DNA of 32,000 bases from Candidatus Saccharimonadota bacterium (GTDB lineage: Bacteria > Patescibacteriota > Gracilibacteria > UBA4473): NCBI GenBank assembly GCA_030429505.1, contig JAUIFI010000001.1, forward strand, positions 720,001 through 752,000. Reading direction: 5' to 3'. The position numbers were made by a program, and so were the translations under genes. Below are positions 1,402-22,933 of this stretch, in pieces; position 1 is the first letter of the stretch, and every line of letters starts with the position of its first letter. The notes under the pieces were generated by a model. That model had not been told where the DNA came from. It saw only the letters and a program-made list of their open reading frames with translations, and ran no database searches.

Positions 1402-3135
1402 ATGAATATGAAATATTTTGCCTATTGTCGTGTGAGTAGTGAGCGTGAAGATAAACAGGTTCTTAGTCCTGAGTCTCAAAAAAGAGAGCTTTTAAATTAT
1501 GCTCGTGAACACAACTTAAAAATTGTGAAAATCTTTTCAGAGAGAGGAACGGCATACAAGACAGGGAGAAAAGAGTTTAATAAAATGCTCGAAGGGTTAG
1601 AAAACGGTGAAGCAAACGGAATTTTAGTTTTTCACCTGAGTCGAATCGCCCGAAATAGTTACGATGGTGGTCGTGTCATTTATATGATGGATGAAGGCAC
1701 AATCAAAGAAATCCGCACGAAAGAAAAGACCTACATAAACTGCTCAGATGATAAATTTCTGATGCAAATTCATTTTGCAATGAATAAGAAGTCATCCGAC
1801 GATAACAGTACTTTTGTAAAAAAAGACATCATCACAAAGTTAGAAAAGCAGGAATTTCCGGGACACGCCCCAATTGGTTATTTGAACATAAACAAGGATG
1901 GGATAATCGCATCAAAACAGTATGACCACAAAAAACAGGAAATTCTTCAAACCTTGGGACGACCATTAAGACGAATTGAAAAAGACCCTATAGTAGCTCC
2001 TCTTTTGAGAAAAGTTTTTGATTTGGCTCTTACCGGACAATATGGGCTAAATCCTCTTAGAGAAGAAGCGTATAAATTGGGAATTGTAAGCAAGAAGAAT
2101 ACAAAACTGGCTAAAAATGTTATGAAGAAAATACTTACGAATCCTTTTTATTCAGGGGAATTTGAGTACTACGAAAAAATATGGAAAGGAAACCACGAGG
2201 CAATTTTATCAAAGAATGAATTTGAAAGGTTGCAAGAAATTCAGGGCAATAGAAGTCGCCCTAAAAAGACACGCCGAGAATATGTTTTTTCAATGCTGAT
2301 TAACTGCGAGGAATGTGGACACCCTTTGAGTAGTGACCATCAAAAAGGACACGATTATCTGAGATGTAGTAAAGCCAAGGGGAAAAATGCTACTTGTAGC
2401 AACAAAAAACACTATCAACAATATGAAGTTGGGAAACAGGTCGTTGAGAAGCTTAAAGAAGTTCAAATCCCAAAATCAATCGTTGAATGGGCTTTGAAAC
2501 AGCTCGAAGAAGCTTATGAAAAAGAAACTACCTGTAATACAGCCTCTCAAGACAAAATTCGTCAGAACATTTCTATTTTGAAGAAACAAATAACAAATCT
2601 AAATCAAAAATGGCTCTCTGCTGAAAACTTGTCAGGCGATTTAATTAGTGACGCAGAATACCGAAGTATGAAAAATGATATTCAACGACAAATTCAAGAC
2701 TACGAAGAATCTTTGAAAAGTCTTGAAGGAGAAGAAAAAAACTGGTTTCAGAAGTGTGAAGAGTTTTTAGAGATTTCAAGAATTATTGTCGCAAAGTATG
2801 AAGATAAAGAATCAAGCGTTGAGGAGAAGAGAATGCTTTTAGAGGCTATTGGAAGCAAGTTCATCCTAACTAAGAAGAAACTCACAGTAGAACTGAATAA
2901 ACCCTATTATGAAGTTCGAGAAGCTAATCGAAAGGTTCAATCTATCCGAACCGCAAAAAATAGCATCATTAAAGGCACAAGCATGCCTTGTACTGAAGAA
3001 ATGATTGTTTGGCAGGCGCGGAAGGAATCGAACCCTCAACTTCGGTTTTGGAGACCGACGTTATACCACTTAACTACGCGCCTGTATTATCCATATCTAT
3101 ATTTTTCAGAAAGACTCGCCCTTGTCCAGATTTAA
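1402..3135 (+). CDS. Large serine recombinase (resolvase/invertase N-terminal domain + recombinase domain + zinc ribbon + coiled coil)
   Basis: The N-terminus YCRVSSEREDKQ...SPESQ carries the catalytic Ser motif, followed by GILVFHLSRIARN. The central part has the recombinase-domain pattern, and a Cys cluster (CEECGHPL...LRCSKAKGKNATC) is followed by a coiled-coil-like K/E-rich region. The last ~42 codons (3010-3135) read antisense through the whole tRNA-Trp gene. Confidence 0.9.
   Translation: MNMKYFAYCRVSSEREDKQVLSPESQKRELLNYAREHNLKIVKIFSERGTAYKTGRKEFNKMLEGLENGEANGILVFHLSRIARNSYDGGRVIYMMDEGTIKEIRTKEKTYINCSDDKFLMQIHFAMNKKSSDDNSTFVKKDIITKLEKQEFPGHAPIGYLNINKDGIIASKQYDHKKQEILQTLGRPLRRIEKDPIVAPLLRKVFDLALTGQYGLNPLREEAYKLGIVSKKNTKLAKNVMKKILTNPFYSGEFEYYEKIWKGNHEAILSKNEFERLQEIQGNRSRPKKTRREYVFSMLINCEECGHPLSSDHQKGHDYLRCSKAKGKNATCSNKKHYQQYEVGKQVVEKLKEVQIPKSIVEWALKQLEEAYEKETTCNTASQDKIRQNISILKKQITNLNQKWLSAENLSGDLISDAEYRSMKNDIQRQIQDYEESLKSLEGEEKNWFQKCEEFLEISRIIVAKYEDKESSVEEKRMLLEAIGSKFILTKKKLTVELNKPYYEVREANRKVQSIRTAKNSIIKGTSMPCTEEMIVWQARKESNPQLRFWRPTLYHLTTRLYYPYLYFSERLALVQI
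3010..3083 (-). tRNA. tRNA-Trp (anticodon CCA), with encoded CCA 3' end
   Basis: Manual cloverleaf, 74 nt in total. Acceptor AGGCGCG/CGCGCCU; D stem GUUA/UAAC; anticodon stem UCGGU/ACCGA with loop CUCCAAA; T stem GAGGG/CCUUC with loop UUCGAUU; discriminator G followed by CCA. Confidence 0.9.
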
Positions 3136-9342: not shown

Positions 9343-9344
9343 TT

Positions 9345-9764: not shown

Positions 9765-9864
9765 AATAAAATATTTTAAAGATCAAAGCAATCGAATATT
9801 TTTTGTGTTCAAAGATTGCCTATGCTAGCATTGAACTGTCTTCACCACCATTCATTAAATAAAA

Positions 9865-10362: not shown

Positions 10363-10385
10363 AACAAACACACACATAAAAAAAA

Positions 10386-10414
10386 GCACCCCTCTTCTCT
10401 GGGGTGTTTTTTTT
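10386..10414 (+). terminator. Rho-independent terminator after the pilin gene
   Basis: Stem GCACCCC / GGGGTG with an 8-nt loop, followed by T8. Confidence 0.7.
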
Positions 10415-10452
10415 AGCTAGCGAAAAACACCCCGCTCAACTACAATAAAAAC

Positions 10453-11598: not shown

Positions 11599-11939
11599 AA
11601 CTCAAAACCAAAAGTATCTACAAAAACAAAAAGGAAAGTTTTTTCTCTGGAATCGCAAACATTTTTAAATTCATCGGAAAGTGCACCGTGAATATTCTTA
11701 AAAGTATATGGATTTGTATAAAAACCATACTCAACTTTCTCCTAAAATGTATAAAATACATCTTTCTCATAATCTTTGGTGCCATTATCAGCATCTCAAT
11801 CTTTCTGGTCTCCATTGGACTATTGATATCCCTCATTTCCAAAGCCTTTGACCTTCCACAAAGCCCAGCTTTCCAAGAAATACGTGAAAATATCCTACAA
11901 ACAATGATCATCGAATCCGAAAGTAATATGAAAAAATAA
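11595..11939 (+). CDS. Small membrane protein (hypothetical)
   Basis: Same frame as track ORF 11511-11939. I prefer the ATG at 11595, which overlaps the kinase stop (ATGA). Hydrophobic segment IFLIIFGAIISISIFLVSIGLLISLI. Confidence 0.5.
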   Translation: MKLKTKSIYKNKKESFFSGIANIFKFIGKCTVNILKSIWICIKTILNFLLKCIKYIFLIIFGAIISISIFLVSIGLLISLISKAFDLPQSPAFQEIRENILQTMIIESESNMKK

Positions 11940-11998
11940 ATTGCTCCAGAAGTTCAAAGAGCTTTATAATAAAAGTAATTTATTAACCCACTCCCCCC

Positions 11999-12388
11999 AT
12001 GGCACTCTCATTCTTTTTGGCTCAAGTGTTTGGTCTCACCTTGACGATCACCGGACTCGGGATCCTTATAAATCGTGATCGAATCGACAAAATCATGAGC
12101 GATATGGAAAAAAACCACGCGCTCACCTATCTCGCCGGTATGTTCACACTCATTATCGGTACACTCCTTATCCTCACTCATAATATCTGGTACGGTGGTT
12201 GGGCCGTCATCATTACGGTTCTTGGATGGCTTACTTTCCTTAAAGGAATTTTTTATATGCTTTTCCCAAAAGCTATGTTCAGTATGGCAAAGTCTATGCA
12301 AAAACAAGGTTGGTACAACTTCGCATCCATCGTCATCCTTATCCTCGGTATCTACCTAATGTATGTAGGATTTAACGGAATTCTGTAA
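11999..12388 (+). CDS. Integral membrane protein (hypothetical, ~4 TM segments)
   Basis: 129-aa ORF with four hydrophobic stretches, followed by a terminator. Confidence 0.6.
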   Translation: MALSFFLAQVFGLTLTITGLGILINRDRIDKIMSDMEKNHALTYLAGMFTLIIGTLLILTHNIWYGGWAVIITVLGWLTFLKGIFYMLFPKAMFSMAKSMQKQGWYNFASIVILILGIYLMYVGFNGIL

Positions 12389-12414
12389 AAGCAAAAAATA
12401 CAAAAACAAAAAAG

Positions 12415-12444
12415 CCAAGATGAATATATGTCTTGGTTTTTTTT
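12415..12444. terminator. Bidirectional rho-independent terminator
   Basis: Stem CCAAGA / TCTTGG with a 10-nt loop. T8 lies downstream on the + strand and an A-run upstream, which gives a T-run on the - strand. Confidence 0.7.
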
Positions 12445-12445
12445 A

Positions 12446-12628
12446 TTGGGGAAGGTGGCAAGAAGCTCTTACCCCGCTAGAGCGGGGACGAGGTTCCGTA
12501 ATAGTCGTCCCAAAAAATCGGGACTCCTTTACTTCAACGAACTCATACGAGTTCAATTCATGCCATTCTGCTATGCAGAAATATAAAAAACTCGCTGTAC
12601 CACAAGGGCACATCGATTTTTTTATTCC
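12446..12628. other. Structured, relatively GC-rich non-coding segment (possible ncRNA of unknown class)
   Basis: Series of perfect short hairpins: CCCCGC-TAGA-GCGGGG, GGGACGA-N13-TCGTCCC, GAACTC-ATAC-GAGTTC, TTCTGC-TAT-GCAGAA. There is no credible ORF; track ORF 12420-12866 runs through the terminator and hairpins. Confidence 0.3.
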
Positions 12629-12858
12629 TTGGTGGAGCAGGCGTGACACATTTCCAACTTTTTTTGGATTTTGTTCGAGAAATCAATCTGTATGCGAAAG
12701 AACTCTTCGAATTACAAATTTCCATGCGAAGATTGGAAAAGATTTTGCAGGCTCCTTCAAAACAATATTGTTCGAGAAGCTTCATTTACTGAGGCTTGAA
12801 TTCTTGAGGTGTTTGAATAAGCTAACGGCATGTATAACTTTATATTGTTTACCTAGTG

Positions 12859-13023
12859 ATGGGTGAACAGAACAAACCTCTTTATTCCAAACAAGAGGTT
12901 CAAGAAGTTCGCAGTCTTACGAGGATTGTCAAAGACATAGACCTCAAAGACGAGCGACGAAGGCTTAATGCCAAGAGGATGATTAACGCCTCAGGAGAAA
13001 CGGTTTACTTCAATGAGTGGTAA
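12859..13023 (+). CDS. Possible small ORF (54 aa, MGEQNKPLYSKQEVQEVRSLTRIVKDIDLKDERRRLNAKRMINASGETVYFNEW)
   Basis: Found by manual translation; it is below the ORF-track size cutoff. It ends 18 nt before a terminator hairpin. No obvious RBS and no recognised family. Confidence 0.3.
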   Translation: MGEQNKPLYSKQEVQEVRSLTRIVKDIDLKDERRRLNAKRMINASGETVYFNEW

Positions 13024-13040
13024 ATACTTTCTTCCATTAA

Positions 13041-13075
13041 AAAATCTCTCAATAGTCTTGTTGGGAGATTTTTTA
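13041..13075. terminator. Bidirectional terminator between the small ORF (+) and the 222-aa gene (-)
   Basis: Stem AATCTCTC / GGGAGATT (one G-U pair) with a 12-nt loop, flanked by A4 upstream and T-run downstream. Confidence 0.6.
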
Positions 13076-13083
13076 CAAAAGGA

Positions 13084-13752
13084 TTATATTTTTTCCAAGG
13101 TTAATCCTGAACATTGAGGAAAGAATATTCTTATATTTTCCTTACAATCATCAGGAAATTTAACCTCTTTAAGGCTGAATTGAAGAATTTTGTCTGCATT
13201 TCCTGATTCATGTCCCAAACATCTCCATTCGCAAGCTAGTAGTTCTTTTTTTGTGGTTTCTTGTGTTACTTTAATTTTTGTTTTTCCTTCGAAAGACTTA
13301 ACTAAAAGCTTCCCAGAAACCATAGAGAAGTTGATTTCAATATTTTCGCTGACAGCAGAATTTAAAATGACATCTAGGCGCTCTATTTCATCGTCAGGAA
13401 TCTTTGGAAGTTTCTCTAGGTGTTCCACCCACATTACAAAAAAGTTATTGAAGGCTGTGCGGTCTACAGAAACTCTTTTGTCGTTCGTCTTTGGTTTCGA
13501 TTCATCTTCTCCTGATTCAAGGATGAAACGATTGTTTTTAGTATCTTTTATGTGTACTCGTCCAGTTTTATGGAAAGAAATATGGTCAATCTCCACGTTA
13601 TTAGTTTTTCCACCGACCTTTGATGCTTGTACTTGAGAAGGAGTGAATAAAATATCACCAGTAAATCTTTGGACGGTAATCATTCCAATATTAAAAAAAT
13701 AAGATGAATACTTAATGACGATTCTATAGCTGACATTGTCTTGTGAATTCAT
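13084..13752 (-). CDS. Hypothetical protein (orphan, 222 aa), co-transcribed downstream of the LexA-like repressor
   Basis: A long ORF that starts 1 nt after the stop of the upstream gene. No motif recognised. Confidence 0.65.
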   Translation of the reverse strand: MNSQDNVSYRIVIKYSSYFFNIGMITVQRFTGDILFTPSQVQASKVGGKTNNVEIDHISFHKTGRVHIKDTKNNRFILESGEDESKPKTNDKRVSVDRTAFNNFFVMWVEHLEKLPKIPDDEIERLDVILNSAVSENIEINFSMVSGKLLVKSFEGKTKIKVTQETTKKELLACEWRCLGHESGNADKILQFSLKEVKFPDDCKENIRIFFPQCSGLTLEKI

Positions 13753-13753
13753 T

Positions 13754-14437
13754 TTAAAATTTCGGCTTTTTAATAACTTGTTTTATCGTCCCGTTCACCA
13801 TAAAGGCATCATCTTCGTGGATGTATATGGGGGGGAGTTCAGTTTTAGATTCAGAGAGCAAAACAATTTGATTATTTTCGGTATCCCTGACGAATTTTTT
13901 AATATTTGCTCCTCCGTCAATTACAGAGAGAACATAATCACCGTTTTGAGGGTTTCTTTCCTCAGAATCAATAATGACGTAATCACCATCTTCAATTGTG
14001 TCACCTCCCACATCGGCATCATTCATTGAATCGCCCGTAGCTTTTAAGACGAATAATGATTTTTTTGGGATTACTTCTAATAAATTTTTGGAGATTTTTA
14101 AAAATCCTTCCAAATTTTCTTCCGCAATAGCGAGTGGGGAACCACAGCAAGCTTTTCCTAATATAGGAATTGAAATGAATGCATTACTTTCATCTTCTGT
14201 ATTGATTCCTACCCGCTCTAAAACATTTTCTTTGTGGTTTATTCGAATCAGCCCTCTTTTTTCTAGCTGTAGAACATGATTTTTTATTTGTTGAGGATGA
14301 GGATTATCTTCTCCAATAGCTTTTCCAATGTCTCGCAATTTTTTCGAAAGTTTCCCACCGTTATCGTCTATAGCCTGAAGAATTTTGCTCTGAGTTTTAT
14401 GCATTATTTTATTTTTAAGACAGCTGAATTCTATCAT
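13754..14437 (-). CDS. LexA/CI-type repressor: N-terminal winged-helix DNA-binding domain + C-terminal S24 self-cleaving peptidase
   Basis: The N-terminus (SKILQAIDDNGGKLS...IKNHVLQLEKRGLIRI) resembles the LexA DNA-binding domain. GKACC-GSPLAIAEENLEG aligns with the LexA/UmuD cleavage-site region. The Ser nucleophile is in ATGDSMND and the Lys in GGANIKKF. Confidence 0.85.
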   Translation of the reverse strand: MIEFSCLKNKIMHKTQSKILQAIDDNGGKLSKKLRDIGKAIGEDNPHPQQIKNHVLQLEKRGLIRINHKENVLERVGINTEDESNAFISIPILGKACCGSPLAIAEENLEGFLKISKNLLEVIPKKSLFVLKATGDSMNDADVGGDTIEDGDYVIIDSEERNPQNGDYVLSVIDGGANIKKFVRDTENNQIVLLSESKTELPPIYIHEDDAFMVNGTIKQVIKKPKF

Positions 14438-14438
14438 G

Positions 14439-14491
14439 TGTCACAAATGAAATCAAGTCGATTTGACAAATGTGACAAAATCCTATAGACT
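14439..14491. promoter_or_regulatory. Divergent promoter/operator region: inverted heptamers, repeated ACAAA motifs and a consensus -35
   Basis: Inverted heptamers TGTCACA (14439-14445) / TGTGACA (14471-14477). Inner inverted pair AAATC (14450-14454) / GATTT (14460-14464). (C/G)ACAAA(T/A) occurs three times, at 14442, 14465 and 14474. TTGACA at 14463-14468 is followed 15-17 nt later by TATAGA/TAGACT (14484-14491). Confidence 0.45.
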
Positions 14492-14516
14492 CCGCTCGTA
14501 TTCTTAATTTACTCAG

Positions 14517-14744
14517 ATGGGGTACAAGCAGACATGGGTTTCTCCCAATGACGGTAACGGCTGGAAAGTTCATCACCCAGAAAATGAACGAGCATCTCGT
14601 GTTTTCGACACAAAACAAGATGCTGTGGACTGGGGAAGACAACATTCTAAAAACGAACATACTGAATTTATAGTTCAAAAAGGAGATGGAGAAATTCAGT
14701 TTAAAGACTCTCATGGGAATGACCCTCGTAACATCAAAGGATGA
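14517..14744 (+). CDS. DUF2188-family small protein
   Basis: The 75-aa sequence VSPNDGNGWKVHHPENERASRVFDTKQDAVDWGRQHSKNEHTEFIVQKGDGEIQFKDSHGNDP matches my recollection of the DUF2188 pattern (W.V......S..F.T..eA...a.......e..IH..DG.I......GNDP). Confidence 0.75.
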   Translation: MGYKQTWVSPNDGNGWKVHHPENERASRVFDTKQDAVDWGRQHSKNEHTEFIVQKGDGEIQFKDSHGNDPRNIKG

Positions 14745-17700
14745 CACAATTTCACGGACTTTTTATCGGTATTGACCGCTACAAATCTCCAAAAATTAAC
14801 TGTTTGGGATTTGCAAAAAGAGATGCAATGGCTCTGCATGCACTTTTTAATGACAACCTAGGGGGTGAGTGTGTATTCATGGCAGATGAAGAAGCAACAA
14901 GGTCTGCAATTGAGAACGAACTGCAAAAATTACAGGGGTGTTCCGAAGACGATGTTGTCGTCATCACATTCTCGGGACATGGGTCACCTACTCACGAATT
15001 AGTAACTCATGACACCGTTCCCGAAAATCTTGAACAAACTGGTATTCCTCTTTCACTTTTGACTGAATGGTTTTCAAAAATTCCTGCAAAAAAACTAATT
15101 TTTCTTTTGGATTGTTGTTTTTCTGGTGGAATGGGGGCAAAGGTTCTTCAGGTCGATGCAATCCCTCGAGATTTGGAATCAGAAGAATCTTTATTGCAGA
15201 AAATGTCGGGAGAAGGAAGGGTGATTCTAACTGCTGCCAATGCGAAAGAACCTGCATGGGAAATTAGTAGATTCAAACATGGTCTTCTGACGCACCATTT
15301 CATAGAAGCTTTATTGGGGAAGTTGGACGCACAGAAAGCAGGAAAGATTTCACTTTATAAACTCTTGGAGCAGGTTGTGCAGAGTGTAGTTGATTCTGCC
15401 AAATCAATCAGAAAAGAACAACATCCAACACTTAGAGGAACGATTGATGAGGAAGTGCTATTCCCTGTCTTTGAAATTAAAGAACATTACAAAGCTGCAT
15501 TTCCTGAAATATGTCGCCCTAAAGTAACAGAGAAAGTTTCGAGTTTAAAAGTCTATGGGTTTCCTGAAGAAGTACTTCAAGCATGGCAAGGAGCTATCCC
15601 TAGTCTGAATGAGCTTCAAATTGCGGCAATAAATGATTACGGAATTTTTGAAGGAAATCATTTGCTTGTTTCGGCTCCCACGTCCTCTGGTAAAACAATG
15701 ATTGGAGAATTAGGGGCGCTGAAAGGGATTACTCAAGGACAAAAAGCAATATTTCTATTTCCACTTAAAGCCTTGGTAAATGACAAACACAGGTATTTCA
15801 ACACTGTATATGCTCCTTTTAATGTAAAAACAATTCGGGCAACGGGAGATTCAACCGATGACATTCCCGACCTTATTCAAGGACAATATGACATCTGCTT
15901 GATGACCTATGAGAAATTTACTGCGTTAGTGCTCAATGTTCCCCACATACTTGGACAGGTGGGAACAGTTGTGATTGATGAGGTACAAATGATTGCTGAC
16001 ACATCGAGAGGAGTTAACTTGGAATTTATCTTAACACTTCTGAAGGTAAAAAGGCTTGAAGGGATTGAACCCCAATTAATAGCTCTTTCGGCTGTAATCG
16101 GAGACACAAATGGATTGGAAAATTGGCTAGGAGCATCTCTGCTGAAGAAAATGGAAAGACCCGTAGATTTACATGAAGGAATCATAAATTCTAGTGGAAC
16201 ATTCCGTTCCATAAATCCGAAAACAAATGATGAAAACATAACTCAAAATTATATTCTTCCTGAAATGAGAAGCCAAAGTGGAAGCAGTCAAAACTATATC
16301 ATCCCTTTGACTAGGAAATTAGTGGCTGATGGAAAACAAGTTATCGTTTTTAGAGCTACTCGCGGGGAAGCTCGAGGATGTGCTAAATATCTTGCACAAA
16401 GTTTGGGACTTCCTCCGGCTAATGAAGAAATAGCAGGACTTCCTACGGGAGACGTATCGATGGCTTCTAATGATTTGAGAAATTGTTTGTTGGGGGGAGT
16501 TGCTTTTCATATCTCAGATTTAGACAGAGATGAAAGACTTGTTGTGGAAGAAGGGTTTCGAAAACCAGACAGTAAAATTCGGGTAATAGTCGCTACTACC
16601 ACACTTGCAATGGGAGTTAATACTCCTGCAGAGGCAGTCATAATAACCGGATTAGAACATCCAGGAAACCCTCCAAAACCTTACTTCATTGCCGAATATA
16701 AAAATATGGTAGGACGAGCTGGACGGTTAGGCTTTTCAGAGGTAGGAGAATCTTTTCTATTGGCTTTAAATGGACATCAAGAGTCTCATTATTGGGGACA
16801 TTATGTTTTAGGCGCTCCTGAAGACATTGAATCTCAATTCTTAAGTCGTGGAACAGACTTACGTTCTTTGATTATTAGAGTTCTTATAGCTGGCAGCAAA
16901 ACGAAAGACCATTTTTTAACAGCAGATGAAATTGTTGATTTCTTGGAAAATAGTTTTGGAGCTTTTCAACAAGCTCGTTTTGATGATTCTTGGACATGGA
17001 ATCGAGATTCCTTATTTCAAGCCATTCACAATCTAGAAGAGAATGAATTAATAGAGAAGGTCAAAGATGGTTATAGTTTAACAGAATTAGGTTGGTTGAC
17101 CGGACAAGGCGGAGTGGAAGTAGAATCAATAGTAAGGATTATCAATGCATTGAAAGGAATGAATGCAACTTCAATCAATGAGATGACATTAATCACAGCC
17201 ACTCAAATGACCGTAGAATTGGATGCTCTTTATTTCCCCTTAAATAAAAAAAGCACACAGAAAGAACCCATTTTTTGGAGAAATGGACTACTTCAAAGAA
17301 GCGTGCCATCTACACTAATATCTTTCTTGCAACGAGGGATTGACCAAATTGGAGCCATTGTCAGGGCTAAAAAAGCAGTAGCTTGTTTATTATGGATGAG
17401 TGAAACACCCCTCAATGAAATAGAAAAAACCATGACCCAATTTGGCGGAGGATTGAATGGGGCAGCAGGCTCTGTAAGGCAGGTTGCTTCGCGAACTCAT
17501 GATTTATTGCCCACTGTTATGAGGATTGCAGAAATTCTTCATTCAGAATTGGACATGGGAGAAAGAGGAAAAACATTATTGGCTCGTTTAGAGGTAGGAG
17601 TCCCTAATTCTTTAGGAGAACTTGCGATTCATTTTGGTAGTCGCCTAACAAGGAATGATTATTTCTCGCTTATGCAGAAAGGTTTAAACACGATGGAGGC

Positions 17701-17857
17701 AATTATTAATGCCCCAGATGAACAGTTATTATCTTGCTTCGGAGGAAGTGATGTCGAAAGGAAACTTGCGTCAGTAAGGGATGCTATTCAAAACTATGGA
17801 GAAGAAAAAATGGAACGAGAATCCGTAGGATTGCTATTACCTAAATATGAAAGTTAA
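14741..17857 (+). CDS. Fusion protein: N-terminal caspase-like (peptidase C14-type) domain + Ski2/Hel308/Lhr-type SF2 helicase
   Basis: Caspase dyad contexts VVVITFSGHG (His80) and LIFLLDCCFSGG (Cys125/126). Helicase motifs: I SAPTSSGKT, Ia FPLKALVNDK, II VIDEVQ, III LSAV, V ATTTLAMGVNTPA, VI YKNMVGRAGRLG, followed by a long C-terminal extension. The ATG overlaps the upstream stop (ATGA). Confidence 0.9.
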   Translation: MTQFHGLFIGIDRYKSPKINCLGFAKRDAMALHALFNDNLGGECVFMADEEATRSAIENELQKLQGCSEDDVVVITFSGHGSPTHELVTHDTVPENLEQTGIPLSLLTEWFSKIPAKKLIFLLDCCFSGGMGAKVLQVDAIPRDLESEESLLQKMSGEGRVILTAANAKEPAWEISRFKHGLLTHHFIEALLGKLDAQKAGKISLYKLLEQVVQSVVDSAKSIRKEQHPTLRGTIDEEVLFPVFEIKEHYKAAFPEICRPKVTEKVSSLKVYGFPEEVLQAWQGAIPSLNELQIAAINDYGIFEGNHLLVSAPTSSGKTMIGELGALKGITQGQKAIFLFPLKALVNDKHRYFNTVYAPFNVKTIRATGDSTDDIPDLIQGQYDICLMTYEKFTALVLNVPHILGQVGTVVIDEVQMIADTSRGVNLEFILTLLKVKRLEGIEPQLIALSAVIGDTNGLENWLGASLLKKMERPVDLHEGIINSSGTFRSINPKTNDENITQNYILPEMRSQSGSSQNYIIPLTRKLVADGKQVIVFRATRGEARGCAKYLAQSLGLPPANEEIAGLPTGDVSMASNDLRNCLLGGVAFHISDLDRDERLVVEEGFRKPDSKIRVIVATTTLAMGVNTPAEAVIITGLEHPGNPPKPYFIAEYKNMVGRAGRLGFSEVGESFLLALNGHQESHYWGHYVLGAPEDIESQFLSRGTDLRSLIIRVLIAGSKTKDHFLTADEIVDFLENSFGAFQQARFDDSWTWNRDSLFQAIHNLEENELIEKVKDGYSLTELGWLTGQGGVEVESIVRIINALKGMNATSINEMTLITATQMTVELDALYFPLNKKSTQKEPIFWRNGLLQRSVPSTLISFLQRGIDQIGAIVRAKKAVACLLWMSETPLNEIEKTMTQFGGGLNGAAGSVRQVASRTHDLLPTVMRIAEILHSELDMGERGKTLLARLEVGVPNSLGELAIHFGSRLTRNDYFSLMQKGLNTMEAIINAPDEQLLSCFGGSDVERKLASVRDAIQNYGEEKMERESVGLLLPKYES

Positions 17858-18302
17858 AAATTCCACTTGTAATCACTTGGATTTTTCGCAGCTTCCGGCT
17901 GCGGAGGGGATGCGTTTTGAAAAAGCAATATTCGCTTGGTTACTGTCTTTACCTAGAAAATTACGTCCTCAAAACCTTAAGACCCAAAAGGACTTTTCCA
18001 AGTCGTACAATATTTCAGAAAATAGCCTTTCAACATGGAAAAAAGAAAAGGATTTTCAACGACTTAGAACGAGTTTGATGAAGAATAATTTTATAGACAG
18101 GACGCCAGACGTTATTGAGAATCTTTACCGAGCGGCTACTGCAGACCCATTGACGGGGAAAAGTCCGGTTCCAGCTATTCGCTTATGGTTGGAATTCATT
18201 GAAGATTGGAGATTGAACCAACCAATAGAATCTGAACCCGAAGAAAAAGTAATTTTCCAATTTGCGACTACGCGCTCACCTTTCATTAATCCAGAGGACT
18301 AG
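17847..18302 (+). CDS. HTH-domain protein (resembles phage terminase-small-subunit / phBC6A51-type helix-turn-helix)
   Basis: LKTQKDFSKSYNISENSLSTWKKEKDFQRL fits the TQ.EFA..lgvs..Tl..Wk.d..F pattern. The start overlaps the helicase gene by 11 nt. Confidence 0.6.
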   Translation: MKVKNSTCNHLDFSQLPAAEGMRFEKAIFAWLLSLPRKLRPQNLKTQKDFSKSYNISENSLSTWKKEKDFQRLRTSLMKNNFIDRTPDVIENLYRAATADPLTGKSPVPAIRLWLEFIEDWRLNQPIESEPEEKVIFQFATTRSPFINPED

Positions 18303-18338
18303 TTTCTGCATCAGAAACTTACTTTTCTGAGGCAGAAA
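18301..18338. promoter_or_regulatory. Two tandem palindromes sharing the arm TTTCTG/CAGAAA (possible terminator hairpins or protein-binding sites)
   Basis: AGTTTCTG-CAT-CAGAAACT (18301-18319) and TTTCTG-AGG-CAGAAA (18324-18338). Their centres are 21 bp apart and no T-run follows. Confidence 0.4.
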
Positions 18339-18555
18339 TTGACTTTAGGGGCAAAAGTTTTAAGATTTTTGTGCTACTCAAATTTCTTTATTTATTCGTC
18401 TCCAATGACTTTTTACGTTTCAACGTAGAGAATCGGTTGTGGTTACTAGAGCTAAAAGATGGGGCAATTCACCGTCCATTTGGCTTTAGTTTCCGCTTGG
18501 AGACAAAAGAAATTTGGGTAGCACGGTTGAGTTGCCCCTTCTTTATATATTTCGA

Positions 18556-19158
18556 ATGAATAAAACTGCAGAAAAATTCGCCAAAGGGTTTGTAATAGCA
18601 TTCGCCCTTTTCATCTTTGTGTCCGTTGTGATTTTAAATTCCTCTCCCTCCGGTCAGAACCATCCTACCAGCATAAAACAAAAAACTCCTTCAGTAGAGG
18701 AGGTCATTTTGTCGACACCGGAAGAAGAAAAATCTGCACTGGAAGACTTCTACAAAAACTTTCTCCAAATTACAGAAGAAGCTGATTCTGCACATGCTGA
18801 ATCTCTTAGTATTGCAAAACAAGGGAATCTTATAGCGAGTTATGCAATGTTTCAAAACCACTCACTTCCAGCCTTCAAAAAAGTTCAAACTGAACTTCAA
18901 AATATGAAAATTCCCAATATTTCAAACGAGGAGAACAAAAGACAACTAGAAGAAGGTGTGAAAGAGGTTTTACAAGCTTATTCCTTACAAATTCAAGGAA
19001 TAAATCAAATCTTGAAGGGAGTAGATGAAAATAAGAATTCACTTATCCTTAAAGGATTCAATCAATTTGAAGAAAGTCAGGAATTTATTATTTCAGGTGC
19101 TGGGAAAATTACATGGATTTTGAACCTTGAATATGGAATTGAAGTTTCGACTGAGTAA
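18556..19158 (+). CDS. Membrane-anchored hypothetical protein
   Basis: Same frame as track ORF 18514-19158. I prefer the start MNKTAEKF at 18556. It has an N-terminal TM helix (FVIAFALFIFVSVVILN) followed by a helical, E/Q-rich region. Confidence 0.6.
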   Translation: MNKTAEKFAKGFVIAFALFIFVSVVILNSSPSGQNHPTSIKQKTPSVEEVILSTPEEEKSALEDFYKNFLQITEEADSAHAESLSIAKQGNLIASYAMFQNHSLPAFKKVQTELQNMKIPNISNEENKRQLEEGVKEVLQAYSLQIQGINQILKGVDENKNSLILKGFNQFEESQEFIISGAGKITWILNLEYGIEVSTE

Positions 19159-19197
19159 CTGGGAATTTCAAGGAATCGCGCTAGAATAAAAATCGAA

Positions 19198-20796
19198 ATG
19201 AGTTACGAAACTCCAATATGTGAACGTTATGTTATATACGCTCGAAGGTCATCAGATGATGGTTCGGGAAAACAATTGAAATCTGTTCCCGACCAGATTC
19301 AGTTTTGCTTAGAATTAGCAGAAAAAGAAGGCATTGAAATAAACAAAGAATCAGACATATTCACAGAATCAGCTTCAGCAAAAAAAGCGAATCAAAGAGC
19401 TGTTTTTACAAAACTTTTAAAACTCATAAGACAAGGAGATGTCGACGGAATTATTTGTTGGCATCCTGACCGTCTGTCGAGAAATATGTTAGAAGCCGGA
19501 GAAATTATTGATTTACTCGATGATGGTTCCATTAAGGATTTAAAATTCTGTACACACCATTTTGAGAATACAGCGTCAGGAAAAATGATGCTGGGAATTC
19601 TCTTTTCTATTTCAAAAGAATACAGCGACAGTCTGAGTGAGAGAATCAATCGAGGAGTTCAGACAAACTTGGAGCAGGGAAAATCAGCAGGAACTCCAAA
19701 ATGGGGTTATAACCGAATTGAAGACGGCTACTATGTTCCCTCAAAAAACTTTTCTTTTATACGGAAAGCTTGGGAAATGCGACTGAATGGGAAAACTTAC
19801 GAAGAAATTGTTCGGTGGTTGAAGCGTGTGGACTGTTTTCGAATGACAAAAGAAAGTAAACGTAAAATTGTTATTGACAGGTCATCGCTCACTCGTCTAT
19901 TCAAAGACCCCATTTATTACGGGGTTTTGGTTCAAACAGGAAAACCCGTCGACTTGCGCGAAATAGACCAAGAATTTGAGCCAATGATTTCGGAAGAGGA
20001 ATTCCGAAGAGTTCAAACTTTGGCGCGAAGAAAGAATAAGCGAAATACAAAGCAAAATTATCCTTTTCGAGATGGAATTATTAAGCATGTTTCAGGAGAA
20101 GTTTGTTTTCCCGAAGCTTCCAAAAGTAGCAATGGGAAGAATTATCTTTACATCACTTGCCGAAAGAATCTCAAGAAAGCTGACCGAATGCGTGCGAGAG
20201 TTTTTCTTGCGGAAGTGTCTAAATTCTTGAAGGAAAATTTCAAAAAGCCAAATCCAAAAGATTATAAAAAATATTTGGAAGTTATGAACGAAGCTATTCA
20301 AGAAGACATGAATGACCGAACAAAACAGAGAAAAGCTTTAATGAATCAGAAAATAAAACAGCAGCAGGAATTGGAGGATTTGATTATGAGTATGTTTAAA
20401 AGAGAGCAGAGAGGGAATGTTTCTGAATCTGAAATTTCTACTTATGAAAAAGAAAAATTCAAACTTGAAGAGAGCCTCAAGGCTTTAGATTCAGACATTA
20501 AAAAAATCGAGAAGAACACACTTCTCGAAGCATTTAGTTATGAAGAATTTTCCAACTTTCTCAAAGATGCAGTCGGGTACTGGGAAAAAGCGGATTCTGA
20601 ACAGAAACACGAATTAGTGAAATTTTTGTTTTCCAACATAGTCGTTGGACACGGAAAAGTGCATAAACTAGAGCCAAAACGACTCATAGCTAAACTTTTT
20701 GTTGGATTTGGTGGAGGTGGCGAGAATCGAACTCGCGTCCAAAGAGGAAACATACCTTCGTCTACGGAACCTAGTTCAGCTGTTTACCTCCTCTGA
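19198..20796 (+). CDS. Large serine recombinase (island 2 integrase)
   Basis: The N-terminus YVIYARRSSDDGSGKQ...SVPDQ carries the catalytic Ser, followed by GIICWHPDRLSRN. A recombinase domain and a K/E-rich coiled coil follow. The last 88 nt (20709-20796) overlap ssrA in antisense. Confidence 0.9.
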   Translation: MSYETPICERYVIYARRSSDDGSGKQLKSVPDQIQFCLELAEKEGIEINKESDIFTESASAKKANQRAVFTKLLKLIRQGDVDGIICWHPDRLSRNMLEAGEIIDLLDDGSIKDLKFCTHHFENTASGKMMLGILFSISKEYSDSLSERINRGVQTNLEQGKSAGTPKWGYNRIEDGYYVPSKNFSFIRKAWEMRLNGKTYEEIVRWLKRVDCFRMTKESKRKIVIDRSSLTRLFKDPIYYGVLVQTGKPVDLREIDQEFEPMISEEEFRRVQTLARRKNKRNTKQNYPFRDGIIKHVSGEVCFPEASKSSNGKNYLYITCRKNLKKADRMRARVFLAEVSKFLKENFKKPNPKDYKKYLEVMNEAIQEDMNDRTKQRKALMNQKIKQQQELEDLIMSMFKREQRGNVSESEISTYEKEKFKLEESLKALDSDIKKIEKNTLLEAFSYEEFSNFLKDAVGYWEKADSEQKHELVKFLFSNIVVGHGKVHKLEPKRLIAKLFVGFGGGGENRTRVQRGNIPSSTEPSSAVYLL

Positions 20797-21124
20797 TCAA
20801 AACTGAACGAAATACAGAAAAGGAGAGCCAAAAATGTCCTCCATAATCGGCAACACCATGAAGTAAGATTCAAATATAAGGAAAATAACTCAGAATCATC
20901 AGCTATAATCCACTGACGAGTAAAAACTCAAGCCAGATTTAATTTAGGCTGCGTAAGCGTAAGCAGGTTTAGCCAAAGAAGCCAAAAGAGCTTCAGCTTG
21001 AGCAACAGCTTTCTTAGCAAAAGATTTTGCATTTATAATTGAATGGTGGATCTACCGGCGACCATACACGCCGTGTTCGCAGAAAATACATTTCTCAATC
21101 TCCCTGTCAAAACCTGACACCCCC
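20709..21124 (-). ncRNA. ssrA: tmRNA (ssrA)
   Basis: The 5' end GGGGGUGUCAGGUUUUGACAGGGA resembles the conserved GGGGCUGAUUCUGGAUUCGACGGGA. The 3' end GGACGCGAGUUCGAUUCUCGCCACCUCCACCA forms a T arm plus an acceptor that pairs with the 5' end, including G3-U. An internal Ala-rich reading frame ends ...AKPAYAYAA-UAA (21030 down to 20944). Confidence 0.9.
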
Positions 21125-21234
21125 GATAAGCTTAAAGAGCAATGAAAAGTATAAAACAATATTCACCAGAAATCAATACCCACCATTGATCTTTCCTTCA
21201 AAATCATCACAATAAAACCACTCAAAAAAATCAC

Positions 21235-22530
21235 ATGACCACAAAAAAACCATATCAAAACTTCCTGACCAATCTTCACCAAGCTGCCTCTACTATCAAA
21301 CTCTCAAAAAGCGCACTCGAAAGACTCGAAAAACCAGAACACATCCATGAATTCGAAATCGAATTCGAAACTGATAAAGGCGTAAAAAAACAAGTCTCCG
21401 GCTATCGCGTCCAACATAATTCTGCTCGGGGTCCTTATAAAGGTGGAATACGATTTCACCATGAAGCCGACCTCAATGAAGTCAAAGCCCTCGCTGCCCT
21501 GATGTCCCTCAAATGCTCCGTCGTCAATATCCCCCTAGGAGGAGGAAAAGGCGGCATCACCATCAATCCCAAAGAACTCTCTCAATCCGAACTAGAACGC
21601 ATGAGCCGAGCATATTTTCGGCTCGGAACAGAACAAGGTGTTTTTGGAGTGAACAAAGACATCCCCGCCCCCGACGTCTATACAAACCCCCAAATCATGG
21701 CATGGATGATGGACGAACACGAAAAAGCCCTCGGATACAAATCCCCCGGAGTCATCACCGGAAAGCCACTTGAAATCGGCGGATCACTCGGACGAAGCTA
21801 TGCCACCAGTCAAGGTGGATTTTTTATCCTGCAAAAATACTTGCAAACGATTAAAAAGAAACCGTCTCAAACCACCATCGCCATTCAAGGATTTGGAAAC
21901 GCTGGAGCGTATTTCGCGGAAATAGCTCATAAAGCAGGATGCAAAATCATCGCTGTATCCGACTCCAAAGGAGGAGTCCGACACCAAGAAGGCGCCTTTG
22001 AAATTCACAAACTTCATGAATACAAAAAAGCCGGCGGATCACTACGTGGAAATTTCTGCGAAGGAGACAAGTGCGATATTACCAAAATGAACCAAGAAAA
22101 AGTTCACGTCGTCTCCAATGAAGAACTTTTACACCTAGATGTTGATGTCCTCGTCCTTGCCGCTCTCGACGGAGTCATTCACACAGATAACGCTGACAAA
22201 ATCAAGGCCAAAAGTATACTCGAGCTCGCAAACGGTCCCGTCACTCCCGAAGCAGACAGTATTCTAGAGAAAAAAAATATAAACGTTATCCCAGACATAC
22301 TTGCCAATGCAGGAGGAGTAACTGTTTCCTACTTTGAATGGGTGCAAAACAGATCTGGTGACGTTTGGGAAGAAAATCACGTCAACGAAAAACTCAAAAA
22401 AATCATGGAAAACGCATTTGATGATTTAATAAAAATAAAAACCGACTATAAAGTGCCCTACCGACAAGCCGCTTTTATTCTAGGAATAGAACGCATCGTA
22501 AACGCCATGGAATTACGAGGACAAATCTAA
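21235..22530 (+). CDS. gdhA: Glutamate dehydrogenase (Glu/Leu/Phe/Val dehydrogenase family)
   Basis: GPYKGGIRFH, the catalytic Lys box PLGGGKGG, and the NAD(P) fold IQGFGNAGAY. Confidence 0.9.
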   Translation: MTTKKPYQNFLTNLHQAASTIKLSKSALERLEKPEHIHEFEIEFETDKGVKKQVSGYRVQHNSARGPYKGGIRFHHEADLNEVKALAALMSLKCSVVNIPLGGGKGGITINPKELSQSELERMSRAYFRLGTEQGVFGVNKDIPAPDVYTNPQIMAWMMDEHEKALGYKSPGVITGKPLEIGGSLGRSYATSQGGFFILQKYLQTIKKKPSQTTIAIQGFGNAGAYFAEIAHKAGCKIIAVSDSKGGVRHQEGAFEIHKLHEYKKAGGSLRGNFCEGDKCDITKMNQEKVHVVSNEELLHLDVDVLVLAALDGVIHTDNADKIKAKSILELANGPVTPEADSILEKKNINVIPDILANAGGVTVSYFEWVQNRSGDVWEENHVNEKLKKIMENAFDDLIKIKTDYKVPYRQAAFILGIERIVNAMELRGQI

Positions 22531-22606
22531 ACAACAACAAATCATTGACGTCCATACAAAACACCATCAAAATAAAAGCATATTTGTTTATTAAACACAC
22601 ACAAAA

Positions 22607-22933
22607 ATGGTCACAACAAAAAAAAATACCGTAAAAAAGACAACTTCAAAAACAGCTAAAAAAACGACTACTAAAAAAGCACCAGCAAAAAAACCAACCA
22701 TTTCAAAAACCGTTTCAAAACCGGCAATAAAAAAACCAACCCCTCCCATCCATCCCCCAAAACTTCATCCAGAAAAAAAATACAATGGTTGGATGATCTC
22801 AAACTCTCTCATAAAAAGATCACTCGCCGTATTCGGACATATGATTATTGGACAACTTCTCATCTTCATTCCTCTCTGGATCCTCTTGGTAGTGCTATCT
22901 TTACTCTTTATAAACGCAACAAGTATCAGTTAA
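22607..22933 (+). CDS. Small membrane protein with Lys/Thr/Pro-rich N-terminal tail
   Basis: 108-aa ORF with a KKTTSKTAKKTTTKKAPAKKP low-complexity region followed by two hydrophobic segments. It has a 4-nt convergent overlap with mnmA. Confidence 0.45.
   Translation: MVTTKKNTVKKTTSKTAKKTTTKKAPAKKPTISKTVSKPAIKKPTPPIHPPKLHPEKKYNGWMISNSLIKRSLAVFGHMIIGQLLIFIPLWILLVVLSLLFINATSIS

What the first reader, a model, noticed from the sequence alone, without database searches (positions are those of the whole stretch)
12629..20716. Complete ~8.1-kb integrative element in the 3' end of tmRNA, mobilised by a serine (not tyrosine) recombinase
The right end is defined by a large serine recombinase gene that converges on ssrA. 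The 9-mer TTGGTGGAG at 20708-20716 is the complement of the tmRNA acceptor 3' strand plus CCA (CUCCACCAA). It recurs at 12629-12637, exactly where host-type sequence gives way to island genes: a terminator and structured spacer lie to the left.

The similarity extends imperfectly, with ttggtggagGTggcg on the right and ttggtggagCAggcg on the left. That pattern fits the limited attP/attB similarity of serine integrases rather than a long duplication.

Removing 12638-20716 leaves an intact ssrA. Joining the two island ends gives a putative attP flanked by inverted GTTGGA (20701-20706) and TCCAAC (12653-12658).

tRNA and tmRNA genes are the classic targets of tyrosine integrases. A serine-recombinase element using the tmRNA 3' end is unusual, to my knowledge. 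A 9-mer repeat alone is statistically weak in 32 kb; its position is what supports the call.
Basis: partly seen in the sequence, partly recalled or inferred. Interest (0 to 1): 0.65.

Follow-up and report, generated by a model that had tools for sequence, protein, structure and literature searches.

The report
Self-splitting serine integrase island at tmRNA
An 8.1-kb mobile island sits exactly at the CCA end of the tmRNA gene, placed there by a serine integrase from a large candidate-phyla-radiation (CPR) bacterial family that targets tRNA/tmRNA ends and whose own gene is cut by the insertion.

Summary

- **The island.** It spans 12630-20708. Host genes flank it on both sides. A 532-aa large serine recombinase gene at the right end runs 88 nt into the tmRNA gene.
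- **The family.** Recombinase relatives in 65 of 79 CPR genome loci likewise end inside a tRNA or tmRNA gene on the opposite strand. A second example abuts tRNA-Trp in this window.
- **Mapped ends.** In 29 islands (4.2-9.1 kb) the two ends share only 6-17 nt. This identity starts at the base complementary to the terminal A of CCA.
- **Site geometry.** The T-loop hexamer lies at +18 in the RNA-gene arm. A copy lies at +23 in the element arm. This 5-bp shift is the one described for serine-integrase attB versus attP.
attP lies inside the recombinase gene. Joining the island ends continues the reading frame for 53 codons (12631-12789) that are conserved as protein. One relative keeps this junction uninterrupted.
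- **Precedents.** Dehalococcoides has serine-recombinase islands in ssrA. Self-splitting tyrosine integrases were reported as exclusively archaeal.
- **Caveats.** No empty site or circular junction was found. This copy has lost zinc-ribbon ligands.

The parts
12596..12612 (-). Terminator-like hairpin plus T-run on the tmRNA strand. It lies 17 nt beyond the left core and is the inferred original ssrA terminator (host B arm).
   Evidence: In the reconstructed empty site it would directly follow the tmRNA 3' end.
12629..12637 (.). attL common core TTGGTGGAG. The family-wide core TGGTGG is 12630-12635, and the crossover is inferred to lie within it.
   Evidence: The identity block between attL and attR runs from -1 to +7 relative to the T of TGG.
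12638..12658 (+). Element-side P' arm. It partly mimics the tmRNA acceptor/T-stem (GGCG, GA). TCCAAC at 12653-12658 is a copy of the T-loop hexamer placed 5 bp further out.
   Evidence: The 5-bp shift is as described for LI integrase (PMC3783163).
12631..12792 (+). Detached C-terminal segment of the recombinase gene: 53 codons plus a TGA stop. It is in frame with 19198-20707 only when the island ends are joined.
   Evidence: The uninterrupted homologue is in L012/P0241. The AF2 model predicts a long helix at residues 511-544.
13084..13752 (-). Cargo ORF of 222 aa with no family match.
13754..14437 (-). LexA/CI-like repressor with a Peptidase_S24 domain.
14517..14744 (+). DUF2188 protein. It matches the PADLOC candidate defence family PDC-S16.
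14741..17857 (+). 1038-aa fusion of an N-terminal caspase-like domain with a Hel308/HamB-like DEAD-box helicase. Probable defence or replication cargo.
17847..18302 (+). 151-aa helix-turn-helix protein with weak small-terminase/transposase-HTH similarity.
18514..19158 (+). 214-aa ORF with no family match, directly upstream of the recombinase.
19198..20796 (+). Large serine recombinase as encoded in the integrated state (532 aa). Residues up to about 506 are element-encoded. From residue 507 the tail is translated antisense through the tmRNA gene.
20708..20716 (.). attR common core TTGGTGGAG, at the junction of the recombinase-coding P arm with the tmRNA 3' end.
20709..21124 (-). tmRNA gene (ssrA), complete, with encoded CCA. 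Its T-loop hexamer TCGAAC is at 20727-20732.
1402..3135 (+). Second large serine recombinase (577 aa; 24% identical to the first). It runs antisense through tRNA-Trp (3010-3083, minus strand). This is the right end of a second island of the same architecture, whose left end lies beyond the window.
   Evidence: GC skew is positive over 1-3000.

Best explanation
**What the element is**
- Window 12630-20708 is an integrative island inserted at the 3' CCA end of the tmRNA gene by its own large serine recombinase.
- The recombinase belongs to a large clade in candidate-phyla-radiation (CPR) bacteria whose chromosomal target is the 3' end of tRNA and tmRNA genes.

**Inferred mechanism**
- On the gene side (B'), the enzyme reads the DNA of the acceptor stem and T-arm.
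- The element's own site (P') carries a partial copy of the acceptor/T-stem sequence. It also carries a copy of the T-loop hexamer placed 5 bp further from the centre. This is the geometry that distinguishes attP from attB for serine integrases.
- Strand exchange happens at a dinucleotide inside TGGTGG, the complement of CCACCA. No tmRNA sequence is lost and only 6-17 nt are shared between the two ends.
- attP lies inside the recombinase gene. In the circular form the gene encodes a 557-aa protein whose last 53 residues come from 12631-12789.
- Integration moves those codons 8 kb away to the far end of the island. The tail is replaced by 26 unrelated residues read antisense through the tmRNA gene.

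**Shown versus inferred**
- Shown: the anatomy, the family-wide association with t(m)RNA ends, the junction positions, the shifted motif, the protein-level conservation of the detached segment, and one natural uninterrupted junction.
- Inferred: the exact crossover dinucleotide, the activity of either protein form, and any regulatory role of the tail swap.
For: 1. **Anatomy in the window.** The recombinase has Resolvase and Recombinase domains, and the fold of the reconstructed 557-aa model matches full-length serine integrases. It overlaps a complete tmRNA gene. Host genes lie on both sides. GC skew switches at both ends. A displaced terminator sits beside attL.
2. **Family trait.**
   - Homologues 49-51% identical end inside tRNA-Ala, tRNA-Ile and tRNA-Lys genes.
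   - In a scan of species-representative genomes, 63 of 79 loci plus 2 more found by Rfam place the ORF stop in or next to a tRNA or tmRNA gene on the opposite strand.
   - At least 10 tRNA types are used. tmRNA is the target in L013 and L058.
   - Distant relatives on viral-database contigs also end in tRNA genes.
3. **Junctions.** In 29 islands of 4.2-9.1 kb, attL/attR identity is 6-17 nt and starts at the T of TGG.
4. **Shifted motif.** The T-loop hexamer is at +18 in B' and at +23 in P' in 21 of 29 islands at up to 1 mismatch, and in 27 of 29 at up to 2 mismatches. Mock sites gave 2 of 145 at up to 1 mismatch. This matches the 5-bp shift of the zinc-ribbon-domain motif reported for LI integrase (PMC3783163).
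5. **Split gene.**
   - Segments homologous to the window's 53 codons lie at the far ends of related islands.
   - All reconstructions are in frame and stop at the same relative position.
   - Substitutions fall 390/369/645 by codon position.
   - L012 982-1422 (P0241) and P0259 span the junction uninterrupted.
   - In more distant subclades, P0036 and P0076 are intact genes with the core inside the ORF and no tRNA nearby.
Against: - No empty attB and no circular attP junction were found for this element. Exact-junction scans of metagenome and viral contigs gave no hit.
- The closest available genomes (GDH 78% identical) lack tmRNA beside GDH, so synteny cannot show an empty site.
- This recombinase, alone among 25 aligned relatives, has lost zinc-ribbon ligands: CxCG has become HVSG and the distal H/C is deleted. 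Pfam does not detect its zinc-ribbon domain. This copy may no longer be active.
- The left half-sites (P and B arms) show no convincing conserved or symmetric motif.
- The extension is modelled only at pLDDT 50-65.
- Nothing here demonstrates recombination.
Confidence: 0.85

Rival explanations
1. The island did arrive as described, but this copy is now a fixed, immobile remnant. Its recombinase has a degraded zinc-ribbon domain, and the element persists only as cargo (defence genes) next to ssrA.
For: - It is the only one of 25 aligned relatives lacking the CxCG and distal H/C zinc ligands.
- The Zn_ribbon_recom domain is not detected by Pfam here, although it is detected in the window's second recombinase.
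- The protein cluster has one member on one contig.
- No circular junction or empty site was found.
Against: - All island ORFs, including the 53-codon detached segment, are intact with no stops or frameshifts.
- The attL and attR cores and the P' motif are intact.
- The region is modelled as a well-folded beta structure at pLDDT about 90.
- Two invariant cysteines (C303, C321) remain.
Confidence: 0.3
2. The conserved 160 nt at the island's left end is not part of the recombinase. It is either an independent small gene or a long conserved DNA site, and its in-frame continuity with the recombinase is coincidental.
For: - Gene callers in public data call small stand-alone ORFs over this segment (P0254, P0261, P0264, P0266, P0267).
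- No full-length unsplit protein of the close (Peribacteria) subclade is in the databases.
Against: - Every reconstruction is in frame with the same 53-codon length.
- The segment begins exactly at the crossover core with no start codon of its own at a conserved place.
- A natural contiguous copy exists (L012/P0241), and P0259 also spans the junction.
- Intact genes with homologous tails exist in other subclades (P0036, P0076).
- Excess third-position substitutions show it is coding in that frame.
Confidence: 0.05
3. The element is a phage satellite (PICI-like) or a degenerate prophage rather than a plain integrative mobilisable island. Under this reading its spread depends on a helper phage.
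For: - The gene set resembles satellites: an S24 CI/LexA-like repressor divergent from a helicase operon, and a small helix-turn-helix protein with weak small-terminase hits next to the integrase.
- Relatives carry GP3_package or HTH_Tnp_1 proteins at the same position.
- The sizes of 4-9 kb fit satellites.
Against: - The small-terminase matches are weak (E about 5e-4, below the Pfam cut-off).
- There are no capsid, portal or other structural genes.
- Cargo is not conserved between islands.
- No helper phage is known.
Confidence: 0.2
4. The 9-mer repeat is a chance match, and the true island boundary or mechanism is different, for example an unrecognised tyrosine integrase or homologous recombination.
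For: - A 9-mer is weak evidence on its own.
- A third copy exists at 27051.
Against: - No tyrosine recombinase domain is found in any island ORF.
- The same core position and the same flanking conserved sequences recur in independently targeted relatives.
- The displaced terminator lies beside the left copy.
Confidence: 0.02

Closest known systems
Large serine recombinases / serine integrases (phiC31, Bxb1, A118/LI integrase, SPbeta-type)
   Same: - Same domain order: catalytic domain, recombinase domain, zinc-ribbon region with a coiled-coil insert.
- Foldseek top hits are full-length serine integrases.
- Short att sites with only a few shared bases.
- A distal motif 5 bp further out in attP than in attB (PMC3783163).
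   Different: - The target is the CCA end of tRNA/tmRNA genes, with the T-loop hexamer serving as the distal motif.
- attP lies inside the integrase ORF.
- Only one half-site of each att site (P' and B') shows a recognisable motif.
- Sequence is remote from studied enzymes: about 17% identity in structural alignments, and phmmer finds only one PDB chain.
Dehalococcoides ssrA-specific genomic islands (DsiB/DsiA; McMurdie et al. 2011, PMC3146451)
   Same: - Islands integrated at the 3' part of ssrA.
- Attributed to a ~540-aa serine recombinase.
- Variable cargo and sizes of a few kb to tens of kb.
   Different: - Insertion there is placed in the T-loop, with a 20-bp direct repeat.
- DsiB is CcrB-like and is paired with a second small serine recombinase, DsiA. 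No such partner is present here.
- The integrase there is not reported to be split.
- The target there is ssrA only, not tRNAs.
SSV-type 'suicidal' integrases of archaeal viruses and plasmids (SSV1, pTN3, pT26-2; PMC8371274, PMC7253208)
   Same: - The recombination site lies inside the integrase's own ORF.
- Integration partitions the gene.
   Different: - Those are tyrosine recombinases in archaea. The review states that self-disrupting recombinases are found exclusively in archaea.
- There the split separates the N-terminal part of the integrase from the fragment that carries the catalytic domain, so the integrase is inactivated.
- Here only the last 53 residues are exchanged, and all recognised domains stay in one piece.
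Classical tDNA-targeting genomic islands with tyrosine integrases (Islander-type; PMC4383910)
   Same: - The island lies between an intact t(m)RNA gene and a repeat of its 3' end.
- The integrase is encoded at the island edge.
   Different: - A different enzyme family is used.
- The repeat is 6-17 nt rather than tens of nt.
- That paper states that serine-family integrases were not known to target tRNA genes.

Membership tests
Large serine recombinase (serine integrase) | N-terminal resolvase-type catalytic domain with the nucleophile serine motif | tested here: met
   PF00239 at E 2.4e-24 over residues 12-162. Y14, R16, S18, D20 and Q26 are invariant across 25 relatives.
Large serine recombinase (serine integrase) | Recombinase domain (PF07508) following the catalytic domain | tested here: met
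   PF07508 at E 3e-11 over residues 187-277. PHROG 95 'integrase' at E 2.6e-61.
Large serine recombinase (serine integrase) | Zinc-ribbon domain with four zinc ligands | tested here: inconclusive
   PF13408 is not detected in this protein. CxCG is replaced by HVSG and the distal ligand is deleted, although relatives keep them. The AF2 model still shows the beta-ribbon with pLDDT about 90.
Large serine recombinase (serine integrase) | Coiled-coil insert and overall fold of full-length integrases | tested here: met
   Long helices at 353-404 and 410-439 in the model. Foldseek E 3e-18 to 9dxd and E 1e-17 to 9y66, with phiC31 and LI integrase also matched.
Large serine recombinase (serine integrase) | attP and attB share only a short core around the crossover; the distal motif is 5 bp further out in attP | tested here: met
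   Identity blocks of 6-17 nt in 29 islands. The hexamer is at +18 in B' versus +23 in P' in 21-27 of 29 islands, against 2 of 145 in controls. This was met only for the P'/B' halves.
Large serine recombinase (serine integrase) | Catalyses attP x attB recombination | not testable with these tools
   This requires an in vitro or in vivo assay.
Dehalococcoides ssrA-GI (DsiB/DsiA) islands | Second small serine recombinase (DsiA) co-encoded with the large one | tested here: not met
   No other Resolvase-domain ORF is present in 12630-20708.
Dehalococcoides ssrA-GI (DsiB/DsiA) islands | Insertion within the T-loop of ssrA with a ~20-bp direct repeat | tested here: not met
   The core here is the last 8-9 nt of ssrA, and identity starts at the CCA end. 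The description of the family is from PMC3146451.
SSV-type 'suicidal' integrases | attP inside the integrase ORF, so the gene is partitioned on integration | tested here: met
SSV-type 'suicidal' integrases | Tyrosine recombinase of archaeal elements; the split inactivates the integrase by separating its N-terminal part from the fragment carrying the catalytic domain | tested here: not met
   This is a serine recombinase in a bacterial (CPR) genome, and only the C-terminal 53 residues are detached.
Tyrosine-integrase tDNA islands (Islander type) | Tyrosine recombinase encoded in the island | tested here: not met
   No phage-integrase-family hit in any island ORF in Pfam, PHROGs or NCBIfam.

The most novel reading that the evidence does not exclude
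**Proposed reading**
- CPR bacteria host a large, undescribed clade of serine integrases that act as a bacterial, serine-family counterpart of the archaeal self-splitting integrases.
- They recognise the DNA of the universal tRNA features: CCA, acceptor stem and T-loop. This would let them hop between tRNA and tmRNA targets.
- Because attP sits in the gene, the full-length enzyme can be made only from the circular element. Integration swaps its C-terminal helix for a meaningless tail.
- This swap could serve as a built-in switch of activity or directionality. The full-length form would integrate. The truncated form would be silent or excision-prone, possibly without a separate directionality factor.
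Probability: 0.35. Interest if true: 0.9.

Novelty: new variant of a known kind. Interest (0 to 1): 0.78.

Why it matters
**Two textbook-level generalisations are challenged**
- tRNA/tmRNA genes are held to be the preserve of tyrosine integrases (PMC4383910).
- Recombinases that cut their own gene are held to be exclusively archaeal (PMC8371274).
- This window, together with 65 further loci, suggests both statements fail in CPR bacteria.

**Practical value**
- A family of serine integrases whose attB is built from universal tRNA features offers many natural attP/attB pairs with mapped junctions.
- These pairs are ready to test as genome-engineering tools. They could also be used to ask how the recombinase and zinc-ribbon domains read DNA.
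- The tail swap makes a long-standing question directly testable: how serine integrases set directionality without, or before, a directionality factor.
- The family also gives a simple marker for finding small mobile islands and their defence cargo in CPR genomes, where the mobilome is poorly known.

Tried and rejected
1. **Larger prophage.** I asked whether the region left of the island was phage structural genes. It was rejected: 3681-12388 encodes a response regulator, type IV pilus/T2SS proteins, pilins and a histidine kinase.
2. **Exact look-up of the flanking GDH protein.** It is not on record.
3. **Predicted empty-site junction** (28-mer) in metagenome contigs: 0 hits.
4. **Predicted circular junction** in viral contigs: 0 hits.
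5. **tmRNA 3'-end 24-mer in metagenome contigs.**
   - More than 120 hits came back, but none is a close relative of this tmRNA. Only the 33-58 nt T-arm/acceptor region matches.
   - The pattern was too widely conserved, so this capped scan was poorly spent.
6. **GDH homologues for synteny.**
   - The best are 78% identical.
   - Their loci (L207, L208) have no tmRNA beside GDH, although L208 keeps GDH-MnmA-GrpE. No empty site could be derived.
7. **Profile search with the C-terminal 150 residues** to find unsplit full-length proteins. In the close subclade only fragments turned up (P0241, P0259).
It was rejected as a pair.
9. **Pinning the crossover dinucleotide.**
   - Intersecting the identity blocks narrows it only to positions 1-5 of TGGTGG.
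   - Weak symmetry and LI-integrase geometry favour T3-G4, but this is not settled.
10. **Conserved cargo across islands.** None was found.
11. **Rfam at permissive thresholds.**
    - Around tRNA-Trp and the attL region, no extra RNA was found.
    - Around the L007 junction, no RNA was found.
12. **Literature searches** for CPR or tRNA-targeting serine integrases. No description was found. The TIGER 2020 paper was not held in the library.

Full report
**1. Observation**

- ARAGORN and Rfam both place a complete tmRNA gene at 20709-21124 on the minus strand.
- The 9-mer TTGGTGGAG is at 12629-12637 and 20708-20716 on the plus strand. A third copy sits at 27051-27059 on the minus strand, inside a host helicase gene. 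That is three copies against 0.28 expected.
- ORF 19198-20796 (532 aa) carries the Resolvase and Recombinase domains. It matches the PHROG integrase family at E 2.6e-61. It runs 88 nt into the tmRNA gene on the opposite strand.
- Everything left of 12388 is host-like: a response regulator, a T2SS/T4P ATPase and platform protein, pilins, a histidine kinase and a DUF2065 protein. Everything right of 21235 is host-like too: glutamate dehydrogenase (GDH), MnmA, GrpE and an AddA-type helicase-nuclease.
- GC skew is strongly negative in the host regardless of gene direction. It turns neutral to positive between about 12,000-12,500 and 20,500-21,000.

**2. The same arrangement recurs across a whole clade**

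- The recombinase (P0001) has homologues at 41-55% identity in Peribacteria/Peregrinibacteria and other Patescibacteria. It has homologues at 32-40% in Saccharibacteria.
- The first three genomic contexts fetched all showed the recombinase ORF ending inside a tRNA gene on the opposite strand. The tRNAs were Ala(tgc), Ile(tat) and Lys(ctt).
- A scan of one genome per species returned 429 relatives. Among the best 79 loci, 63 have the ORF stop in or beside a tRNA or tmRNA gene on the opposite strand. The overlap is usually 21 or 57 nt.
- Rfam added two more loci. The remaining loci are cut by contig ends or are frameshifted copies still lying near a tRNA.
- Targets include Lys, five Leu isoacceptors, Met, Gln, Pro, Ile, Ala, Cys, His and Val. 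tmRNA is the target in L013 and L058.
- Distant relatives on viral-database contigs also end in tRNA-Gly or tRNA-Trp genes.
- The window contains a second, only 24% identical, large serine recombinase (1402-3135). It runs antisense through tRNA-Trp at 3010-3083.

**3. Where the islands end**

- Immediately before the t(m)RNA 3' end, the recombinase-coding sequence is conserved between relatives. Immediately after that point the sequence is tRNA-specific.
- At the other end of each island, a TGGTGG core is followed by a conserved sequence. In the window this is 12629 TTGGTGGAGCAGGCGTGACACATTTCCAAC. L001, L004, L006, L007, L012 and L058 carry equivalent sequences.
- For 29 islands I could pair both ends. 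They measure 4.2-9.1 kb, and the window's measures 8,079 bp.
- The only identity between attL and attR is a block of 6-17 nt. In most pairs the block starts at the T of TGG, which is the complement of the terminal A of CCA.
- The crossover must lie in that block. Intersecting all pairs, including L013 (which lacks the first base), leaves positions 1-5 of TGGTGG.
- The island therefore removes nothing from the tmRNA gene. It needs to carry only a few bases of matching sequence, as expected for a 2-bp serine-recombinase crossover.
- On the host side of attL there is a terminator-like hairpin and T-run on the tmRNA strand (12612 to 12596). This is where the ssrA terminator would sit in the empty site.

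**4. The att sites look like serine-integrase sites built on tRNA features**

- In the gene-side arm (B'), the T-loop hexamer TTGAAC/TCGAAC begins 18 nt from the T of TGG.
- In the element-side arm (P'), the same or a near-identical hexamer begins at +23. This holds in 21 of 29 islands at up to 1 mismatch, and in 27 of 29 at up to 2 mismatches.
- Mock sites gave this shift in 2 of 145 trials.
- In the window the pair is TCGAAC (20727-20732) and TCCAAC (12653-12658).
- A 5-bp outward displacement of the zinc-ribbon-domain motif in attP relative to attB is what Rutherford et al. described for LI integrase and proposed for other serine integrases (PMC3783163).
- Closer to the core, P' partly copies the acceptor/T-stem of the target. 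The match is 15 of 18 in the window and 17 of 17 in L058. This fits a shared recombinase-domain binding site.
Its proposed partner GTTGGA is not: it lies 3-8 nt from the core, is part of the coding sequence, and is not conserved in relatives.
- I found no convincing motif in the P or B arms.

**5. attP lies inside the recombinase gene**

- Joining 20707 to 12629 continues the reading frame for 53 more codons up to a TGA at 12790-12792. The product is a 557-aa protein.
- The same reconstruction in L001, L004, L006, L012 and L058 gives 53-54-codon extensions. All are in frame and all stop at the same relative place.
- The extensions align as protein: GGA.V.HFQ.F....I..F..EL..LQ.SMR....L..P.
- Substitutions among the seven copies compared (the window, L001, L004, L006, L012a, L012b and L007) fall 390/369/645 on codon positions 1/2/3.
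- L012 carries, inside its island, a leftover 3' fragment of a second recombinase gene in which the junction is uninterrupted...LAYNPLIEQLFVSSGGADGQHFQRFVSLTANIGRF...LTF*. The window's reconstructed residues 411-546 align across it at E 1e-30.
- A search of 1.8 billion representative proteins found one more junction-spanning fragment (P0259). It also found several small ORFs called over detached extensions.
- In the Saccharibacteria and other subclades, candidate left ends carry in-frame 44-51-codon extensions that are homologous within each subclade.
- Two database proteins, P0036 (567 aa) and P0076 (584 aa), carry such tails on intact genes. The TGGTGC core is inside the ORF and no tRNA is nearby.
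- Integration therefore moves the last ~50 codons to the other end of the island and replaces them with residues read antisense through the RNA gene. In the window the two forms diverge from residue 507.

**6. The protein**

- AlphaFold2 on the reconstructed protein gives mean pLDDT 83.
- The model shows the expected order: catalytic domain, recombinase domain, beta-ribbon, and a long coiled coil (353-439). The ribbon is then completed by strands 478-493.
- A disordered linker (504-510) follows; it is encoded by the att core. After it comes a long helix (511-544) of low confidence.
- Foldseek places full-length serine integrases and phiC31 and LI integrases on top.
- One warning applies to this copy. 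It is the only one of 25 aligned relatives that lacks the CxCG and the distal H/C zinc ligands. It may be impaired.

**7. Cargo**

- The island carries a LexA/CI-like S24 repressor and a DUF2188 protein that matches the defence candidate PDC-S16.
- It carries a 1038-aa fusion of a caspase-like domain with a Hel308/HamB-like helicase.
- It also carries a small helix-turn-helix protein with weak small-terminase similarity and two ORFs with no family match.
- Cargo is not shared between islands.
- A satellite-like lifestyle is possible but unsupported.

**8. Comparison with what is known**

- Large serine integrases are the family. Membership is met on domains, fold and att-site logic. The zinc ribbon of this copy is inconclusive.
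- A serine recombinase at ssrA has a precedent in Dehalococcoides (PMC3146451). That system differs: it has a DsiA partner, it inserts in the T-loop, and it leaves a 20-bp repeat.
- The Islander paper states that serine-family integrases were not known to target tRNA genes (PMC4383910).
- The closest analogue for a gene that splits itself is the SSV-type 'suicidal' tyrosine integrase. A 2021 review says this type is found exclusively in archaea (PMC8371274).
- I found no paper describing the CPR clade. The closed literature could not be searched.

**9. What remains unproven**

- No empty site or circular junction was recovered for this element.
- The exact crossover dinucleotide is not determined.
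- The activity of either protein form and any role of the tail swap are inference.

**10. Verdict**

- The finding is real and correctly delimited.
- It is one member of a large, apparently undescribed variant of serine-integrase elements.
- I rate it a new variant of a known kind, with interest 0.78.

Noticed in passing
window 1-3135: A second island of the same architecture lies at the window's left end. A 577-aa large serine recombinase (1402-3135; it has the Zn_ribbon_recom domain) runs antisense through tRNA-Trp (3010-3083). GC skew is positive over 1-3000. The island's left end lies outside the window.
   Followed up: partly
window 3048-3406: The 5' half of tRNA-Trp (36 nt, through the anticodon) is duplicated exactly at 3371-3406. 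An 85-aa GIY-YIG endonuclease ORF (3074-3331, minus strand) lies between the half-copy and the full gene. No intron or other RNA family was detected. The origin is unexplained; a homing-endonuclease insertion or a relic of another integration are possibilities.
   Followed up: partly
window 14517-17857: The cargo includes a DUF2188 protein that matches the PADLOC candidate PDC-S16 over its full length. It also includes a 1038-aa fusion of an EACC1-type caspase-like domain with a Hel308/Hachiman-HamB-like helicase. This is a possible new defence-gene pairing. A similar caspase-like N-terminus occurs in the L070 island.
   Followed up: partly
L012 342-497 and 982-1422: This tRNA-Lys island holds two copies of the C-terminal extension. 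One is at the true left end. The other belongs to a truncated second recombinase gene with an unrecombined attP. This suggests tandem or nested insertions followed by decay.
   Followed up: partly
L007 20-3010: A mini-element of only about 2.9 kb: the extension segment, three tiny ORFs, a GP3_package-like protein and the recombinase. The recombinase tail reads into sequence in which neither ARAGORN nor Rfam finds an RNA gene, although it begins TGGTGG and contains a TTTGAAC motif.
   Followed up: partly
window 19198-20796, residues 295-325: This recombinase is the only one of 25 aligned relatives without the CxCG zinc-ligand pair and the distal H/C ligand.
   Followed up: yes
window 3500-12000 and 21000-29000: Host DNA has a strongly negative GC skew (-0.2 to -0.39) whatever the direction of the genes. 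Both islands stand out against it. This may be useful for island detection in this genome.
   Followed up: no
window 20709-21124: The tmRNA encodes an unusually long predicted tag peptide, AKSFAKKAVAQAEALLASLAKPAYAYAA. The two other tmRNA-targeted relatives (L013, L058) also have long tags.
   Followed up: no
L211 1-10465: On a viral-database contig, tRNA-Gly genes lie at both ends of the region holding a distant recombinase relative: (ccc) at the contig start and (gcc) overlapping the ORF end. The contig may show a related element bounded by two tRNA genes.
   Followed up: no
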